Origin: Candidatus Woesearchaeota archaeon
GTDB taxonomy: Archaea > Nanobdellota > Nanobdellia > Pacearchaeales > GW2011-AR1
DNA: 34,543 nucleotides
Reading direction: 5' to 3'
Assembly: GCA_964450135.1 (NCBI GenBank)
Contig: CAYVCF010000002.1
Location: 1-34,543 of the forward strand
Below are positions 21,801-27,800 of this stretch, piece after piece. Below the pieces are notes generated by a model. That model was given only the letters and a program-made list of their open reading frames with translations. It was not told the origin of the DNA and made no database searches. A program made the position numbers and the translations under genes. Within the stretch, counting starts at the first letter, position 1. Each line of letters begins with the position of its first letter.

Positions 21801-24800
21801 TGTTTTATACCACAAAGAAACAGAATTATTATTTTGAGTAGTTGTTGCTGAAACATAATCCCCTGCCCCATCAAAACTAAAACTTTTTCCAAGTCGTCCA
21901 GACGCATTTTGTTGTGCGTTTCCGAATTTTGTTCCGTTGCTATTTCCTGACCACACAATTAAATTATTTCTTTTCACAAGCAAAATATCATTCTCAACAT
22001 CAACATCGTAAATTTTTCCAGAATAATTTTCTTTCCTGATATTTTTAACTTTTATTAAATTTTTATTTTCATCTAAGAAATAAACTTGTTTTCCGTTGAG
22101 GAAATCAGAATATACCTCTGTGATTGGTTGAAGCCCAAAATCATTTACAGAAAAGTTTAAATATTCTTTATAATTGTTTTCAATCATGGAAGAAATTGTT
22201 GTTAAAATTGATGTGCCTTCTGAACTTAATGAAGAATTTAAATCAGCATTAACTAAAGTAGTTAAACAATTTACAAGAAGAATGCAATTTTCTTTAGCAG
22301 ATAATTTGTTGTCTAAAAGCAAATTAACAGACGAACAAATATCTGAACTTGCATCTGAGCTAAAAGAACAAGTTGCAGAAAAACACGGACTTTGAAAAAT
22401 GGAATCTATTCCAAAAAAGTTAGTCATTGATGCAAATATTTTATTTTCATTTTTCCAGCATAAATCATTTAGAAGATATTTAATTGAAGAATTGCTAAAT
22501 TCAGATTGTGAATTAATTTCTCCTAAATTTGTTTTTGAAGAATTGATGAATTCAAAATCTAAAATATTAAAATTCTCTGGGATAGATAAATCCGAATTTG
22601 ATTTTCTGTATTCACTATTATCGTCAGAAATTATTTCTGTTAAGAGTTCTGAATATTTTTCATTTTTATCAGAAGCAGATAAAATTTCCCCGCATAGTTC
22701 TAAGAAGGACTCTCCATATTTTGCGCTTGCGCTTTTTTCAAATTGCCCAATCTGGTCTGATGAAAAAGCATTTCTTAAACAAGATAAGATTAGAATTTTA
22801 TCAACAAAAGATTTATTGAAATTATTAAGATTAGAATAGACCTTGTGCTTTGGACTAACAACTAAATCTCCTTTTTCTGTTTCAATCGCAAACATTTCAT
22901 CATCATAATCAAAAGTTTGGTATTCAATTGGTTTATCAAATTCTATTTCTCCGGTTTTTTGATTTAATGTTGCGACTTCTTCTTTTCCGTTTAAGTCAGC
23001 AAAATATTTCCAAGAATAATTATAACACTTTTTATTTTTGTCGTCGGAAACTTCAGAAAAATTTGTGCGCTCGCGTGCAAGCACGCTTTCATCAGCGCCG
23101 AAGGCGACAAATTCTTTTTTCAAATTTTCTTCTTTATAATTTTTATTCTCATTATTTTTATCTTCAATATTTTCCAAATTATTTACCCCCACAAAATTAT
23201 TTTCTCCGCAAGAAATTTCTTCTCTAACTAAAATTTTTGTCTTATTATCATAACATCTTCCCATATAATCCACAACATCTCCAGAAGAATTTACATCATC
23301 CATTCTCCACCATGCAACTAAAGAATTATCCCAATCAACAAAAGTTGAAATATTTGCTTGCGTGTCATTTGAAGTTGCGTTTATGAAAATTGAATTTTGA
23401 TTTCCACCTTGCTGTGAGCCATTTGCTGGAGTTGGAGTTTCAAATTGTGTGAAAGGTTGTGAAGTGTCTACAAAAATATGTCTGATTGTTGTCTTGTTTA
23501 CATTTCCTGCAACATCTTGAACATAAGCAGTGTAATTATAAGTTCCATCTGGTAAATTTGTAAAATTATTTTCAACTCCATAATTTGGAGCGCTTGCGTT
23601 ATACAAACTTTTAATTTCCGACGCTGACAACGCGCGATTAAATATCATAACATCGTCGATGGAGCCGTTGAAATAACTTGTAGCTGAATTACTTCTACCT
23701 ATTTCTATAGAACTTGTACTTGTCACAATTGCCCCGCTAATTATTGAATTATTTTCTAAAACCCCGTTAATATAAATTGCAGAATATCCAGAAGAGTTTC
23801 TTGTAGAAAAAATATTATACCAAGAATCTGCATTCCAATTTGAAGTAGCAGAAGACAAATCAATATAAGAACCATTATAAATAATCAATTTCAATTTCCC
23901 ATTTTGAGAAGGATAATCAAATGCTAAATAATAAGCAACATTTTTATTAATAAGACGAATATTTGAATTCGTGTTGTTTATTATCACTGCAGGTTTTATC
24001 CAAATTCCTAAAGAGATTTCATTAGAAATATTTAAACTATTTCCAGTTCCAACATCAACATAATCCCCGTCCCCATCAAACGCAAACGCCTTTCCTCTTT
24101 TTCCTGACGCTGTTTGATTTGCATTTCCATAAGAAATTCCGTTGTTAGAATTTCCTGACCACACTCCACAATTTCCGTCGTCAGATTCAAATTCAAAAAT
24201 TTCTCCTGAAATATTTAAAGAACAAAATTTGTTTTTGTCGTCGGAAAAACCAAGGACGCGAGCAGAGGGAATCGAACCCCCAAACCCCGAAGGGCACTCA
24301 GGATCAGTGAGTTGTAATAACCATTCTACCATGCCCGCATCCAAATTATCAGAATCTACCGAAATATTTAAATACTTCTCTTCTCTACAATTATTATTAC
24401 TCAGGATCAACGAGTTGGGTTCAACCATTCTATTCGAACCCTCTTTATTTTTATTTTCGTCGTCGCCAAAATTTTCTTCTTCATAATTTTTTGCATCTCT
24501 TTTTATCAAAACAATATCATTTTCAACATCAACGTCGTAAATTTTTCCAGAATAATTTTCTTTTGAAATTGATTTTACTTTTACAGGTTTATTTTCTGAG
24601 TTTAAGAAATAAATTTCTTTTCCATCTAAATAATTTTCATAAACTTCTGTGATTGGTTGAAGAGAGAAAGATTTATATAATTCTTGGTTACTAATTTTAT
24701 TATGAGAATTGCTATTAATGATTTCATTGTTACAGATAGTGAAATTTGCGGAGGCGTCCCAGTTTTCAATAACACAAGAATTATGGTCTGGCAAGTTATG

Positions 24801-27800
24801 GAGTTGCTCGGAGCAGGAATTACTATTGATGAAGTTCTCCAAAATTATTTTCCATCTCTCACAAAAAATGCTATTCTCTCTGTTTTGACATATGCTTCTA
24901 AACTCGTCGGAGAAGAAAAGCATGCTCTTCTCCAAGAATAAACTAAAATTTCTTTCTGATGAAAATTTTCCAAAAGCAGTTAGGGATTTACTAATGCAAG
25001 AAGGACATGATGTAAAAGAAGTTCCATCAAATTCTACAGACAAACAAGTATCTAAAATTGCTAAATCAGAATCAAGAGTTTTATTAACATTTGACAAACA
25101 TTTTCTTAACAAAAGATTGTTCCCTCCAGAAGAACATTTTGGAATTGTGGTGTTTAAAATTTCCCCCCCATTAATTGAAACAACATTTTCATTATTATCT
25201 AAACTGCTTGAAAAAGTAAATTCATCTGAATTCAAAGGAAGATTATTTGTTATATCTTTATTTAGATTTATTTCATATCCAGAAAATTTGTTTAAACCCA
25301 AAGAATAGACCTTATGTTTTTCAGAAACCAACAAATCACTTCCATCTTCTAAAATTATTTTATACATTTCTTTGTTGTAATCAAATTCTTGCTTTTCTTT
25401 TGGAATTTGAAATTCAATTTCCCCAGTTTTTTGATTTAATGTCGCAACTTCCTCTTTCCCATTTAAGTCAGAAAAATATTTCCAAGAATAATTGTAACAA
25501 GTTTTAGAATTTTTAATTTTGTCGTCGGAAAAATTAATCACGCCGGGAGTGGGAATCGAACCCACAAACCCCGAAGGGCACTTTGTATCAGAAAGTTGCA
25601 ATAACCATTCTGCCACCCCGACGCAATCATTTGAATTAACCGAAATATTTAAATACTTCTCTTCTTTGCGATTATCATAACTTTGTATCAGCAAGTTGGG
25701 TTCAACCATTCTGTTCGAACCCTTTTTATTTTTTTCATTTAAACTATTTTCTAAATTCTCGTCGGTGTTTTCAGAAAAATTTGCGAGTTCGCGTGCAAGC
25801 GCGCTTTTATAAGCGCCGAAGGCGCCAAATTTATTTCCCAAATTATTTTCAAATTCGTCGTCGTCAAATTCTTTTTCCAAATTCTCCTCATTAAAATTTT
25901 CCCAACAATTTATTTCTTCTCTAACTAAAATCTTTGTCTCATTATCATAACAATAACTTGAATTATCATAAACATCTCCAGAAGAATTCATTTCGTCAAA
26001 TTTCCACCAGCCAACTAAAGACCCATTAAAATCAATAAATGCAGAATGTTCGTTTGTGTCTGTTGTTGAAACATTTACATAAATAGAATTTGAATTTAAG
26101 TAAGAACCATTTTCAAAAGTTGGCGAGACAAGAGAAATATTTGAAAAAATTGTATCAACAATTTGTGTTCTCAAAGGAGTTGTGTTTTTATTATTTGCAA
26201 CATCTGTAATTGTGACGTTGTAATGATAAGTTGTGTCGGAAAGTGCGGTGAAATTAATTGAAAGATTTGAAATGGTGTCTGATAAAGTGTAAGTTGTTGA
26301 ATTTACCAAAGTGAAAGTATTTGTAGTATTATACAAATTAAAACTTATATTCGCAGGATTTAATTCTGTTACAGAAACATTTACAAAAACAGAATTTGAA
26401 TTTAATCCAGTGTTGTTTTCTAAAGTTGGGGGGGCATAAGAAATGGTGGGAAAAATTGTATCTGTTGTTGTCGCGCTTGAACTTGAAATTCCGCCAATTA
26501 TATAAGGAGTGTAAAAATTATTTGCGTCGCTTAAGAATTTGAACTCAGGCAAGACATTTGTCGTCGCTGTTGGAATCGCAACTTGCATTCCTATTGTGTA
26601 ATTTCTAAATTCAGGTATTGTAAATTTCGCGCGTCCTTTAACATAAAGTTCTTTAATTTCTGCTTCTGATAAACTTCTATTGAATATCATAACTTCGTCT
26701 ATGGAGCCGTTGAAAAAATTTATATTATTTTGTCGCTTTCCAAAAAATTGAAAAGAATAAGGAATTGAAACATTATAAGAATTATTTCCGCAAAGAACAG
26801 AATTTAAATAAATTTTCATTCCTTCTGAACCATTCATAGTAGCAGTAACTAAATGATACTCTCCTGTTGTTATAGAACGACTGCAAGTAGCTTCATTTGC
26901 AATAGTTCCGGTGTGTCTTGTATAAACAAGTTTTCCATTTGCATCAATATCAATTGTATTACCTTGCCAAGAATCTGCATCTACAAGTGTCATCAGGGTA
27001 TTATTTTTATTTGCATTAAACCATACTGAAATGGTATTATTATTTCTTGTATCACTTAACACATTATTTAATTGAACATAATCCCCGTTCCCATCAAAGC
27101 TCACAGCGTCGTCAAAAACTCCGCTGGTTAAATTTGGTCCTGCTCCAGTCATTGTTAAAGTTCCGTTGTTAGAATTTCCTGACCACACTCCGCAATTTCC
27201 GTTTTCTGATTCATATTCAAAAATTTCTCCTGAAACATTTAGAGAACAAAAATTGTTTTTATCGTCGGTGTTTTGAGAATTTAAAATTGTAGTGGCGCCG
27301 TAGCCGAGAATCGAACTCGGATGTCTGGATAGACCCCGCTCATCAGGCGAGTGCATTACCATTGATGCTACTACGGCATCCACTACAAAATTATTATTTT
27401 CAGAAAAGTTTATATAGCTATTGTCATTCAAATTATTAAAGTCTGGATAGACAAAATGCCTTACCATTGATGCTACATTATCAATAGCATCTTTATCTTT
27501 TTCATTTTCCAAATTTTCGTCGCCAAAATTTTCTTCTAAATTATTTTTCTCCCTTCTCACAAGAATAATATCATTTTCAACATCAACGTCGTAAATTTTT
27601 CCAGAATAATTTTCTTTTGAAATTGATTTTACTTTTACAAGTTTATTTTCTGAATCCATAAAATAAATTTCTTCTCCATCTAAATAATTTTCATAAACTT
27701 CTGTGATTGGTTGAAGAGAGAAATTAATTACGCCGGGAGTGGGAATCGAACCCACAAACCCCGAAGGGCACTTGGTATCAACAAGTTGCAATAACCATTC

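What the first reader, a model, noticed from the sequence alone, without database searches (positions are those of the whole stretch)
24672..25308. Second antisense TA operon (DUF433 + DUF5615) inside intein 3, with codon-level evidence of dual-coding selection
The architecture matches intein 4, with a different TA family and a TATA box at the identical 22-nt spacing from the ATG. The DUF433 gene is codon-aligned with the antisense intein frame, so TTA, CTA and TCA would each create an intein stop. All of its roughly 9 Leu codons are CTC, CTT or TTG and its Ser codons are TCT or AGT. There is no TTA even though TTA is used freely in the neighbouring out-of-register PIN gene (22399-22839). That contrast serves as an internal control for selection keeping the intein translatable. 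Two unrelated TA families have independently occupied the same slot of sister inteins.
Basis: partly seen in the sequence, partly recalled or inferred. Interest (0 to 1): 0.9.

Follow-up and report, generated by a model that had tools for sequence, protein, structure and literature searches.

The report
Toxin-antitoxin operon nested backwards inside an intein
A working two-gene toxin-antitoxin cassette sits on the opposite strand inside a self-splicing protein element (intein) of a giant archaeal surface-protein gene, and its codons avoid creating stop codons in the host gene; the same arrangement recurs in many other genomes and I found no paper describing it.

Summary
Window 24672-25308 (+) holds an archaeal BRE/TATA promoter, a DUF433 gene (24702-24941) and an overlapping PIN-like DUF5615 gene (24922-25308). 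Both lie antisense inside intein 3 (24150-25952, -) of an uninterrupted 7112-aa ORF.

DUF433 is codon-aligned with the host frame and has no TTA, CTA or TCA. The local reference genes use TTA for 45% of Leu codons. P is about 0.001 by synonymous resampling.

DNA-level searches found about 20 close relatives in Pacearchaeota, Woesearchaeota and Nanoarchaeota contigs, and the rule holds there too:
- DUF433 has 0 TTA and 1 CTA in 142 Leu codons.
- The adjacent out-of-register DUF5615 has 171 TTA in 312.
- Both TA proteins are under purifying selection (pN/pS 0.2-0.25).
- The host-frame "linker" evolves neutrally apart from avoiding stops, and has no confident predicted fold.

The antisense linker matches 129 protein clusters, some inside Pfam-significant inteins. 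A third TA family in a related locus obeys the same codon rule.

The most likely reading is a selfish TA cassette occupying the homing-endonuclease slot, removed from the host protein by splicing. Whether it stabilises the intein is inference. Splicing, toxicity and expression are untested.

The parts
12843..34181 (-). Host gene: one uninterrupted 7112-aa ORF for a giant LamG-repeat surface protein, containing four Hint/intein elements
   Evidence: Intein starts are CYDN(E/K)TKIL at aa 99, 1987, 2744 and 3643. Intein ends are VWSGN|S.
24150..25952 (-). Intein 3 (aa 2744-3344, 601 aa). A Hint core is interrupted by three insertions: an N-terminal one, the endonuclease slot, and one between blocks F and G.
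   Evidence: One search gives the coordinates. Pfam Intein_splicing is sub-threshold at E 3.3e-6. The AF2 core has pLDDT 70-87. The top 46 Foldseek PDB hits are all Hint/inteins, best E 5.6e-3.
25923..25952 (-). Intein block A, CYDNETKILV (Cys1 nucleophile)
25302..25328 (-). Intein block B, VSEKHKVYS (S-x-x-H). Its 'VY' codons supply the TAG stop of DUF5615 on the other strand.
24666..25310 (-). Host-frame translation of the reverse complement of the TA cassette. This is a 215-aa Ser/Asn/Leu/Cys-rich linker (aa 2958-3172) with no stops.
   Evidence: pLDDT is 23-36. pN/pS is about 1 in this frame.
24667..24679 (+). Archaeal promoter of the TA operon, AAAG-A-TTTATATA (BRE-like plus TATA box at 24672-24679), ending 22 nt before the ATG. 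This implies a leaderless mRNA.
   Evidence: The motif and its spacing are conserved across cassettes.
24702..24941 (+). DUF433 (COG2442) gene, the predicted DNA-binding antitoxin, 79 aa. It is codon-aligned with the host antisense frame and lacks TTA, CTA and TCA.
24922..25308 (+). DUF5615 (PIN-like, Mut7-C-related) gene, the predicted toxin, 128 aa. It overlaps DUF433 by 20 nt and is in the +1 register. An in-frame upstream ATG lies at 24892.
24639..24668 (-). Start of the intein C-lobe, FSLQPITEVY, immediately after the cassette
24498..24548 (-). Intein block F, GKIYDVDVENDIVLIKR
24147..24170 (-). Intein C-terminus CGVWSGN (terminal Asn) plus the +1 Ser of the C-extein
21942..23255 (-). Intein 4 (aa 3643-4080), a paralogue carrying the second antisense cassette in the same slot
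22156..22839 (+). Second antisense cassette: TATA TTTAAATA 22156-22163, a 69-aa putative antitoxin at 22186-22395 with no Pfam hit, and the PIN_2 toxin at 22399-22839. Both genes are in the +1 register.
24254..24339 (-). tRNA-like element (class II shape, anticodon GAU) in sense orientation, in frame, inside the C-terminal insertion of intein 3
25540..25623 (-). Second tRNA-like element, inside the N-terminal insertion of intein 3

Best explanation
The region is a complete type II toxin-antitoxin operon of a DPANN-like archaeon. It has a DUF433/COG2442 antitoxin, a PIN-like DUF5615 toxin and its own BRE/TATA promoter, and probably gives a leaderless bicistronic mRNA. It is nested on the opposite strand in the slot of a Hint/intein where a homing endonuclease normally sits.

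The host gene, a 7112-aa surface protein, is translated straight through the reverse complement of the cassette. This yields a linker of about 215 aa with no confident predicted fold. The linker is discarded with the intein by protein splicing, so the cassette costs the mature host protein nothing.

Antisense is the only orientation in which a gene with its own stop codon can sit inside a continuous ORF. The price is that the cassette must never contain TTA, CTA or TCA in the host register.
- The toxin sits in the +1 register, which is cheap to keep open.
- The shorter antitoxin is forced by the 20-nt gene overlap into the codon-aligned register. It pays by excluding TTA/CTA Leu codons and TCA Ser codons.

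Shown here: the anatomy, the HMM identities, the stop-free frame and its improbability, recurrence in many genomes, purifying selection on both TA proteins, and neutral evolution of the linker apart from stop avoidance.

Inferred: the intein splices with this insert, the TA pair is expressed and toxic/neutralising, and the pairing is mutualistic between two selfish elements. In that reading the intein gives the cassette a phenotypically silent home in coding DNA. The cassette's addiction property penalises loss of the intein-bearing allele, replacing homing-endonuclease-driven persistence in these endonuclease-less inteins.
For: Identity and anatomy.

Improbability in the window: P(0 stops) is 0.00115 for DUF433, the other antisense frames carry 28 and 13 stops, and reference TTA usage is 45%.

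Replication at DNA level, not dependent on called ORFs:
- About 21 close relatives (DUF5615 at least 69% identical) have 0 stops in the aligned antisense frame. Four loci have 1.
- The other two antisense frames have 10-30 stops (most 12-30).
- More distant relatives (43-59% identical) have 2-8, except L022 with 0, which is flanked by an intein C-lobe.

Pooled codons, in-group:
- DUF433 Leu: TTA 0, CTA 1 of 142. Ser: TCA 1 of 83.
- DUF5615 from the same loci: TTA 171 and CTA 31 of 312. TCA 93 of 255.
- Fisher p = 5e-46 and 1e-12; the sequences are phylogenetically non-independent.
- Leu columns show synonymous turnover without ever using the forbidden codons.

Selection:
- Sense pN/pS is 0.20 for DUF433 and 0.25 for DUF5615, with 63% and 53% of differences at third codon positions.
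- Host-frame pN/pS is 0.98 over DUF433.
- The same holds for copies in intact host ORFs only.

Intact nesting elsewhere:
- L040 Pacearchaeota, L041 Woesearchaeota, L007/L008.
- L041, P0091, P0045 and P0068 are canonical inteins. For the last three, Pfam Intein_splicing scores 73-84 bits; the match spans the linker in P0091 and P0068.
- L050 shows an intact TA pair on the opposite strand in the same register.

Prevalence: the linker matches 129 clusters at E <= 1e-3 and 19 at E <= 1e-30.

Generality of the rule: in L040 a third cassette has its codon-aligned RelE-like gene with 0 TTA/CTA/TCA, while its +1 partner has 8 TTA of 10 Leu.

Other support:
- The promoter motif and 22-nt spacing are conserved.
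- The linker has pLDDT 23-36 while the Hint core has 70-87.
- No homing-endonuclease Pfam domain appears among the 25 intein relatives.
- The PIN-COG2442 pair was predicted as a TA system by Makarova et al. 2009 (PMC2701414).
Against: - No expression, splicing or toxicity data exist.
- The window's own inteins reach only sub-threshold Pfam Intein_splicing scores (17-27 bits against a cutoff of 35.8). They end in Gly-Asn rather than His-Asn.
- Three large insertions in one Hint domain, one of them between blocks F and G, might impair splicing.
- Several relatives sit in degraded or absent intein contexts yet are still stop-free. These are L001, L002, L004, L005, and L017 next to ribosomal-protein genes. 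Part of the openness could therefore be inherited rather than currently selected.
- One relative (L052/P0086) lies in a 1419-aa ORF with no detectable Hint flanks, so an intein may not be strictly required.
- The strong CTC preference (52% of in-group Leu codons) is not explained by stop avoidance alone.
- Pooled codon statistics treat related sequences as independent.
- The addiction-stabilises-intein step is pure inference.
Confidence: 0.63

Rival explanations
1. Passive safe harbour. The cassette is only a passenger. Any stop-free antisense insert is tolerated in a permissive intein loop. The TA serves the cell (stress response, anti-virus abortive infection) or only itself, and gives the intein no persistence advantage.
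For: - The linker evolves neutrally.
- The same inteins also harbour unrelated inserts, namely tRNA-like elements and other modules, in three different loops.
- Free-standing and intein-less copies exist (L017, L052).
- Free-standing relatives of the same TA family are ordinary chromosomal TA pairs (L020, L025, L027).
Against: - Every protein-coding insert identified so far is a TA pair, from three families, not a random gene sample.
- These inteins lack any endonuclease yet are multicopy.
- The association is old and widespread (129 clusters). This suggests more than accident, although it does not prove benefit to the intein.
Confidence: 0.2
2. Trans-acting homing machinery. The DUF433 DNA-binding protein and the PIN-like nuclease together cut intein-less alleles. 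They would act as a free-standing homing endonuclease encoded on the opposite strand, so the element is still a mobile intein.
For: - The cassette occupies exactly the endonuclease slot.
- PIN-like domains are nucleases and DUF433 is a 3-helical DNA/RNA-binding fold (PMC2701414).
- There is a deep, specific association of this pair with two intein families.
- Four inteins sit in repeats of one gene.
Against: - The family's free-standing relatives are typical two-gene TA loci in bacteria and archaea.
- The slot is also filled by a different PIN_2 pair and, in L040, a RelE-like pair. These are not plausible sequence-specific DNA endonucleases.
- No PIN-type homing endonuclease is known to me (own knowledge).
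Confidence: 0.06
3. Antisense regulator. The main role of the nested promoter is convergent transcription through the giant gene. This would give transcriptional interference or a 640-nt RNA duplex that tunes or phase-varies surface-protein expression. The TA coding capacity would be secondary.
For: Conserved strong BRE/TATA promoters face against the host gene in several inteins of the same ORF.
Against: Both TA proteins are under clear purifying selection (pN/pS 0.2-0.25). The coding function is therefore not secondary. No data bear on regulation.
Confidence: 0.05
4. Dead host gene or artefact. The giant ORF is not expressed or is a mis-assembly, and the open antisense frame is a leftover or a coincidence.
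For: Several related cassettes lie in truncated or degraded intein contexts. The window inteins are only weakly recognised by Pfam.
Against: - A 21-kb stop-free frame in a 31.6% GC sequence cannot be chance.
- The same nesting appears inside long ORFs in independent assemblies.
- Forbidden codons are excluded despite pS of about 0.47.
Confidence: 0.03
5. The antisense 'linker' is itself a functional protein domain, making the locus a true three-product dual-coding locus.
For: The linker is recognisable by sequence across 129 clusters.
Against: That conservation is explained by conservation of the TA proteins on the other strand. Host-frame pN/pS is about 1 over DUF433. AF2 gives pLDDT 23-36.
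Confidence: 0.03

Closest known systems
Inteins with a nested homing endonuclease domain (e.g. PI-SceI, PI-PfuI, TliVMA; reviewed in PMC8966425)
   Same: A selfish genetic module sits between the N- and C-lobes of the Hint domain and is removed from the host protein by splicing. The insert can degenerate while the Hint core persists.
   Different: Here the module is an independent two-gene operon on the opposite strand with its own promoter and stop codons. The intein polypeptide carries only the meaningless reverse-complement translation. The module is a TA pair, not a LAGLIDADG or HNH endonuclease.
PIN-COG2442 (DUF433) type II toxin-antitoxin pairs (predicted by Makarova, Wolf and Koonin 2009, PMC2701414)
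   Same: Same two Pfam families, same gene order (antitoxin first), overlapping genes, small size.
   Different: Ordinary members are free-standing and have antisense stops (L020 and L025 have 6-8). This clade lives inside ORFs and is recoded to be stop-free on the other strand.
Fractured genes with a free-standing homing endonuclease gene between split-intein halves (Dassa et al. 2009; own knowledge, not read here)
   Same: An independent gene lies within an intein locus at the endonuclease position.
   Different: In those cases the host gene is physically split into two ORFs and rejoined by trans-splicing. Here the host ORF stays continuous through the nested genes.
TA modules that stabilise dispensable mobile DNA such as plasmids, integron cassette arrays and integrative elements (general TA literature; own knowledge)
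   Same: The proposed logic is the same: addiction penalises loss of the surrounding element.
   Different: The element being stabilised would be an intein inside a coding sequence. This has not been demonstrated.
Long antisense overlapping genes with stop-codon avoidance (e.g. HIV-1 asp, PMC10846101, seen)
   Same: An open frame is maintained antisense to a conserved gene by avoiding the reverse complements of stop codons.
   Different: Here the antisense frame is not a new gene. It is a pre-existing host ORF that must merely stay open, and its product is discarded.

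Membership tests
Intein (Hint-domain protein-splicing element) | Hint fold | tested here: met
   The AF2 core segments (residues 1-22, 150-220, 423-487) have pLDDT 70-87. The top 46 Foldseek PDB hits are all inteins, hedgehog or BIL domains, but the matches are weak: best E 5.6e-3 over 55-90 columns. Phmmer against the PDB returns, apart from one beta-glucuronidase chain at E=1, only inteins, at E 0.02 or weaker.
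Intein (Hint-domain protein-splicing element) | Curated family HMM above threshold (Pfam Intein_splicing PF14890) | tested here: not met
   The window inteins score 17-27 bits against a cutoff of 35.8 (E 3e-6 to 7e-3). Relatives carrying the same cassette (P0091, P0045, P0068) score 73-84 bits.
Intein (Hint-domain protein-splicing element) | N-terminal Cys/Ser nucleophile and block B (T/S)xxH | tested here: met
   Cys1 is in CYDNETKIL and block B is S-E-K-H in VSEKHKVYS. The block B His is invariant and Cys1 nearly invariant in alignment A1.
Intein (Hint-domain protein-splicing element) | C-terminal Asn followed by Cys/Ser/Thr, canonically His-Asn | tested here: inconclusive
   The element ends ...VWSG-N | S. 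The terminal Asn and +1 Ser are present, but the penultimate residue is Gly, not His, in all four copies.
Intein (Hint-domain protein-splicing element) | In-frame insertion in a host protein whose flanks form a continuous sequence | tested here: met
   The flanks are D-S-S-G-Y | ... | S-N-N-G-T-L followed by FDG.GDYV, a LamG repeat. Pfam Laminin_G_3 is found on relatives, and uninterrupted repeats occur in the same protein.
Intein (Hint-domain protein-splicing element) | Autocatalytic protein splicing | not testable with these tools
   This needs an expression or splicing assay.
Type II toxin-antitoxin system, PIN-COG2442(DUF433) class | Both family HMMs above the curated threshold | tested here: met
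   PF04255 scores 67.7 bits (cutoff 23.6). PF18480 scores 58.8 bits (cutoff 23.8).
Type II toxin-antitoxin system, PIN-COG2442(DUF433) class | Two small co-directional, adjacent or overlapping genes, antitoxin first, with a promoter upstream | tested here: met
   The genes overlap by 20 nt. A BRE/TATA ends 22 nt upstream of the ATG. This architecture is conserved in about 25 loci.
Type II toxin-antitoxin system, PIN-COG2442(DUF433) class | Both proteins maintained by purifying selection, with conserved nuclease motifs | tested here: met
   pN/pS is 0.20 and 0.25. The motifs SDENFP and LTFDKHFLNK are conserved among the close relatives, and DEN and TFDKHFLN also in the more distant ones.
Type II toxin-antitoxin system, PIN-COG2442(DUF433) class | Toxin arrests growth and antitoxin neutralises it | not testable with these tools
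   The class itself rests on a comparative-genomic prediction (PMC2701414).
Homing-endonuclease-containing (mobile) intein | LAGLIDADG, HNH or other endonuclease domain fused in frame in the intein | tested here: not met
   No endonuclease family appears in Pfam scans of the four window inteins or in the precomputed Pfam of the 25 relatives. The slot holds antisense TA or tRNA-like inserts instead.
Dual-coding (antisense overlapping) genes | Both strands open, with statistical avoidance of reverse-complement stop codons | tested here: met
Dual-coding (antisense overlapping) genes | Amino-acid-level purifying selection on both products | tested here: not met
   Only the TA frame is constrained. 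Host-frame pN/pS is about 1 over DUF433.

The most novel reading that the evidence does not exclude
There may be a previously unrecognised class of 'ORF-dwelling' gene cassettes. These would be TA operons of at least three families, each with its own promoter, that have been recoded so their reverse complement has no stop codons. That lets them live inside continuous coding sequences. They are found mostly in the endonuclease slot of inteins in DPANN giant surface-protein genes, and occasionally directly in a host ORF.

In this reading, TA addiction has replaced the homing endonuclease as the persistence engine of these inteins. The inteins have become gene-carrying platforms that also hold sense-oriented class II tRNA-like genes with a GAU anticodon and their own TATA boxes.
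Probability: 0.35. Interest if true: 0.9.

Novelty: new variant of a known kind. Interest (0 to 1): 0.85.

Why it matters
Inteins are thought to persist through a fused homing endonuclease, or else to decay into mini-inteins. Here endonuclease-less inteins carry a different selfish module, a TA operon encoded on the other strand. The host reading frame is held open through it by codon-level selection that is visible in about 20 close relatives and 129 protein clusters.

If the inference is right, this would be:
- a new way for two selfish elements to cooperate;
- a clean natural example of selection acting only against stop codons in an otherwise meaningless translated frame;
- a practical annotation warning, because gene callers report the antisense ORF and miss the TA genes (none of the window's TA proteins is on record);
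- evidence that inteins may tolerate spacers of about 215 aa and multiple large insertions, which matters for intein engineering.

It also makes one question testable: can addiction modules stabilise inteins?

Tried and rejected
- **Exact look-up of the window's TA proteins.** DUF433 and PIN proteins are not on record in the gene-position index, probably because callers took the giant antisense ORF.
- **NCBIfam scan of the four TA proteins.** It gave nothing useful, only a sub-threshold Cas2 hit for the 69-aa partner of PIN.
- **Viral contigs.** They hold no relative of DUF5615, so there is no evidence for a viral vector.
- **Bacterial promoter/terminator scan.** It is uninformative for an archaeon. 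It only flagged GC-rich hairpins at 25790-25825.
- **Literature.** Six full-text searches were run on combinations of intein, toxin-antitoxin, antisense, DPANN, opposite strand, free-standing, DUF433/DUF5615 and dual coding. None found a description of TA genes nested antisense in inteins. This is absence within the held library only.
- **Horizontal origin of the codon pattern.** I considered whether DUF433's odd codons reflect recent transfer from a GC-richer donor and rejected it. Its other codons are AT-rich (GC3 0.28). The co-transcribed DUF5615 uses TTA normally. The pattern is specific to the three forbidden codons.
- **Selection bias.** I considered whether openness is an artefact of searching called proteins. 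I addressed this with DNA-level (tblastn-confirmed) searches independent of gene calls.
- **Functional linker.** I considered whether the linker is a functional domain and rejected it on pN/pS of about 1 and pLDDT below 36.
- **Not attempted.** A phylogeny-aware codon model; a tree of TA genes against inteins.

Full report
**1. What is in the window**

The window is 31.6% GC. It carries one uninterrupted 7112-aa ORF on the minus strand, 12843..34181. The neighbours include topoisomerase I and an intron-containing tRNA, so this is a cellular, archaeal-type chromosome.

The giant protein is built of LamG-type repeats. It is interrupted four times by a related element that begins CYDN(E/K)TKIL and ends VWSGN|S, at aa 99, 1987, 2744 and 3643.

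Intein 3 is aa 2744-3344, window 24150..25952. Its conserved core consists of:
- block A with Cys1;
- block B, VSEKHKVYS;
- the C-lobe start, FSLQPITEVY;
- block F, GKIYDVDVENDIVLIKR;
- a terminal Asn followed by Ser.

The core is split by three insertions.

**2. The observation**

Between block B and the C-lobe the plus strand encodes, in order:
- a BRE/TATA motif, AAAGATTTATATA, at 24667-24679;
- 22 nt of spacer;
- a 79-aa DUF433 gene at 24702..24941 (Pfam E 7.8e-19);
- overlapping it by 20 nt, a 128-aa DUF5615 gene at 24922..25308 (Pfam E 5.6e-16, with a weak Mut7-C hit).

Intein 4 has, in the same slot, TTTAAATA, 22 nt of spacer, a 69-aa ORF and then a PIN_2 gene (E 1.8e-20).

DUF433 is in the same codon register as the host's minus-strand frame. 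The other three genes are offset by +1.

DUF433 has 9 Leu codons (CTC 6, CTT 1, TTG 2) and 4 Ser codons (TCT 3, AGT 1). It has none of the three codons whose reverse complement is a stop. Reference usage from about 8000 codons of the same window is TTA 45%, CTA 2.7%, CTC 2-6% and TCA 32%. DUF5615 and PIN use TTA 8 and 12 times.

With the protein sequence held fixed and codons resampled, DUF433 would carry 5.5 antisense stops on average, and P(0) = 0.00115. In the +1 register P(0) is 0.31 for DUF5615 and 0.06 for PIN. The other two antisense frames of the cassette have 28 and 13 stops.

**3. Is it reproducible outside the window?**

*Biased sample.* A protein search with intein 3 returned 25 relatives. 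Several contain the same antisense-derived linker at 52-67% identity. Their contigs all carry intact DUF433 (70-76% identical) and DUF5615 (70-76%) on the opposite strand. This sample is biased toward open frames.

*Unbiased sample.* I therefore searched raw contigs with the DUF5615 protein. About 21 close relatives (at least 69% identical) were found. They come from metagenomes and from Candidatus Pacearchaeota, Woesearchaeota and Nanoarchaeota genomes.
- The antisense frame aligned with DUF433 has 0 stops over the whole cassette in these loci. Four loci have 1.
- The other two antisense frames have 10-30 stops (most 12-30).
- More distant relatives (43-59% identical) have 2-8 stops, like ordinary free-standing TA pairs. 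The exception, L022 with 0 stops, is flanked by an intein C-lobe.

*Pooled codons.*
- The 19 in-group DUF433 genes have 142 Leu codons with 0 TTA and 1 CTA, and 83 Ser codons with 1 TCA.
- The DUF5615 genes of the same loci have 171 TTA and 31 CTA among 312 Leu, and 93 TCA among 255 Ser.
- Fisher p values are 5e-46 and 1e-12, with the caveat that the sequences are related.
- Individual Leu columns switch between CTC and CTT, or between TTG and CTG, but never to the forbidden codons. Synonymous divergence is high, with pS about 0.47.

**4. Which strand is 'real'?**

Both TA genes are under purifying selection in their own frame.
- pN/pS is 0.20 for DUF433 and 0.25 for DUF5615.
- 63% and 53% of differences fall at third codon positions.

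The host frame across DUF433 has pN/pS 0.98. The result holds when only copies inside long intact host ORFs are compared.

AlphaFold models the Hint core of intein 3 with pLDDT 70-87, and all three insertions, including the linker, with pLDDT 23-36. The linker is therefore a spacer whose only constraint is to lack stops.

**5. Is the host element an intein?**

The window's copies match Pfam Intein_splicing only below threshold. Against that:
- The modelled core finds only inteins, hedgehog and BIL domains among its first 46 PDB matches, though the matches are weak (best E 5.6e-3).
- The catalytic positions are present: Cys1, block B His, terminal Asn and +1 Ser.
- The flanks reconstitute a LamG repeat.

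The penultimate residue is Gly rather than His.

The same cassette also sits in canonical inteins. Examples are L041, P0091, P0045 and P0068. For the last three, Intein_splicing scores 73-84 bits, and the match spans the linker in P0091 and P0068. In the contig of P0091 (46.9% GC) the TA genes are intact on the other strand and in the same register relation.

Long open host ORFs containing the cassette are seen in L040 (at least 6.4 kb), L041 (at least 6.1 kb), L007 (at least 4.6 kb) and L008 (3.8 kb). An assembly artefact specific to this window is therefore very unlikely.

**6. How general is it?**

A full scan of 1.84 billion representative proteins with the 215-aa linker found 129 clusters at E <= 1e-3, 51 at <= 1e-10 and 19 at <= 1e-30. 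Many lie inside proteins of 1200-5000 aa with the same intein motifs.

Locus L040 carries three antisense cassettes in two inteins:
- a PIN_2 pair;
- the DUF433/DUF5615 pair;
- a pair whose second gene looks RelE-like by eye but has no significant Pfam hit.

In that third pair the codon-aligned gene has 0 TTA/CTA/TCA (Leu: CTC 5, CTT 2, TTG 1). Its +1 partner has 8 TTA of 10 Leu.

In the window and L040, each nested gene checked (the DUF433/DUF5615 pairs, the two PIN_2 pairs and L040's third pair) is in register 0 or +1 and none is in +2. Register +1 needs only the avoidance of a few Tyr/His/Gln contexts and is nearly free.

The cassettes share the promoter motif (A)AAG(A/T)TTTA(A/T)ATA. It ends 22 nt before the ATG in four of the five cassettes examined. 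This fits leaderless archaeal transcripts, given standard archaeal promoter geometry (own knowledge).

**7. Mechanism proposed**

*Shown.* A conserved, selected TA operon is nested antisense in the endonuclease slot of an intein. The host frame is kept open by excluding three codons.

*Inferred.*
- The precursor is translated through the spacer, and the spacer leaves with the intein.
- The TA pair is expressed and behaves as predicted for the PIN-COG2442 class (PMC2701414).
- The two selfish elements help each other: the intein supplies a silent site in coding DNA, and the TA penalises loss of the intein-bearing allele in inteins that have no endonuclease.

*Caveats.*
- Copies persist in degraded intein contexts.
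- L017 is a free-standing copy next to L24e/S28e/L7Ae-like genes. Its first antisense stop lies in the promoter spacer.
- L052 is a copy in a 1419-aa ORF with no detectable Hint flanks.

These may be stages of decay or escape. Alternatively they may mean the intein is helpful but not obligatory.

**8. Known relatives and novelty**

The nearest known systems are:
- endonuclease-containing inteins;
- free-standing endonuclease genes in fractured, split-intein genes;
- ordinary PIN-COG2442 TA pairs;
- TA modules that stabilise mobile DNA;
- antisense overlapping genes with stop avoidance.

None of these combines an independent opposite-strand operon with a continuous host ORF that is later spliced at protein level. 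Six full-text searches found no such description. I rate this a new variant of known kinds: an intein carrying a selfish module, and a TA on a mobile element. The more radical reading is set out as the novel case.

**9. Unexplained**

The strong preference for CTC is unexplained. It accounts for 52% of in-group DUF433 Leu codons against 2-6% in the window's reference genes. CTT or TTG would avoid stops equally well, and Ser follows the AT bias (TCT well above TCC). The antisense of CTC is Glu and that of CTT is Lys, but the linker shows no amino-acid constraint.

Also unexplained are the class II tRNA-like elements with a GAU anticodon, nested in sense orientation in the same inteins.

Noticed in passing
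window 24254-24339, 25540-25623, 27293-27377, 27730-27813, 33440-33527 (all - strand); also L017:1633-1718: Five tRNA-like sequences lie in sense orientation, in frame and stop-free, inside inteins 1-3 of the giant ORF. ARAGORN calls them tRNA-Ile(GAT) and Rfam tRNA scores them 47-53 bits. They have a long variable arm (class II shape) and, by eye, what appears to be a G discriminator. Two copies have an encoded CCA and fold as a cloverleaf in the minimum-free-energy structure. Three copies have a TATA-like TATTTAAATATTT about 23 nt upstream on their own strand. The same translated motif (..VAEWLLQ..CPSGFVGSIPT.GV..) occurs in P0002, and a looser version (..MAEWLTQ..FGYAGSIPAPGV..) in P0008. 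They could be nested tRNA genes, possibly Ser- or Leu-type bodies reading Ile codons, or tRNA-derived mobile elements.
   Followed up: partly
L040:1208-1752 (+), inside the second intein of a Pacearchaeota giant ORF: A third antisense two-gene cassette (a 93-aa ORF plus an 88-aa ORF that looks RelE-like by eye but has no significant Pfam hit) lies in tandem with the DUF433/DUF5615 cassette. It has the same promoter motif at 22 nt. The codon-aligned gene has 0 TTA/CTA/TCA and its +1 partner has 8 TTA.
   Followed up: partly
19 DUF433 copies (window 24702-24941 and loci L001-L042); L040:1486-1752: Leu codons in codon-aligned nested genes are mostly CTC (74 of 142, and 5 of 8), although CTC is 2-6% of Leu in the window's reference genes. 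Stop avoidance alone would predict CTT or TTG. No explanation was found.
   Followed up: partly
L017:3751-4384 (contig Ga0074195_1000924): A close copy of the cassette (76-77% identical) stands free next to ORFs that by eye look like ribosomal proteins L24e, S28e and L7Ae, with no Hint flanks. Its antisense frame is still open across both genes but is closed by a CTA in the promoter spacer. It looks like a recent escape from an intein.
   Followed up: partly
L052:4364-4997 (contig of P0086, 36% GC; the locus contains 110 N): Intact DUF433 and DUF5615 genes lie antisense inside a 1419-aa ORF that has no detectable Hint or intein flanks (no Pfam hit). The cassette may be nested directly in a host protein, in which case the 200-aa spacer would stay in the mature product.
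   Followed up: partly
window 25737-25850 and 23019-23132 (repeat family D14), hairpins at 25790-25825 (+): A shared module of about 114 nt lies in the N-terminal insertions of inteins 3 and 4. In the intein 3 copy two GC-rich hairpins followed by T-rich tails on the plus strand were found, about 480 nt downstream of its TA operon. These could be terminators for the TA transcript or another small element.
   Followed up: no
L002 = L012 (contig Ga0307928_10023195, 4236 nt): The contig begins and ends with the same sequence (...IQELKAENNELKFKNQQILNRLELLENK*...), so it may be circular or tandemly repeated. It carries a truncated canonical intein (from block B on) with the cassette, fused to a Peptidase_S74-type C-extein, plus HicA and a PDDEXK-like gene. 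It may be a small plasmid or virus.
   Followed up: no
L007:about 1100-1517 (- strand translation): Directly after the DUF433/DUF5615 linker the same intein contains a second, shorter stretch that looks like the antisense of another DUF433 gene (..HLQDLPNHDSCALESGLAMADISVYNNILVNLYSH..). This suggests tandem or partly decayed cassettes.
   Followed up: no
window 9299-10284 (-): A 196-aa NTP_transf_2/Polbeta protein with an HTH overlaps a 132-aa ORF by 4 nt. This is possibly a free-standing MNT/HEPN-type pair elsewhere in the same window. The 132-aa ORF was not scanned.
   Followed up: no
window 24702-24941 and 22399-22839: Neither the window's DUF433 nor its PIN protein is on record in the 153-billion gene-position index. 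In the related contigs examined, gene callers report the long antisense ORF instead of the TA genes. This TA clade is therefore probably missed systematically by annotation.
   Followed up: partly
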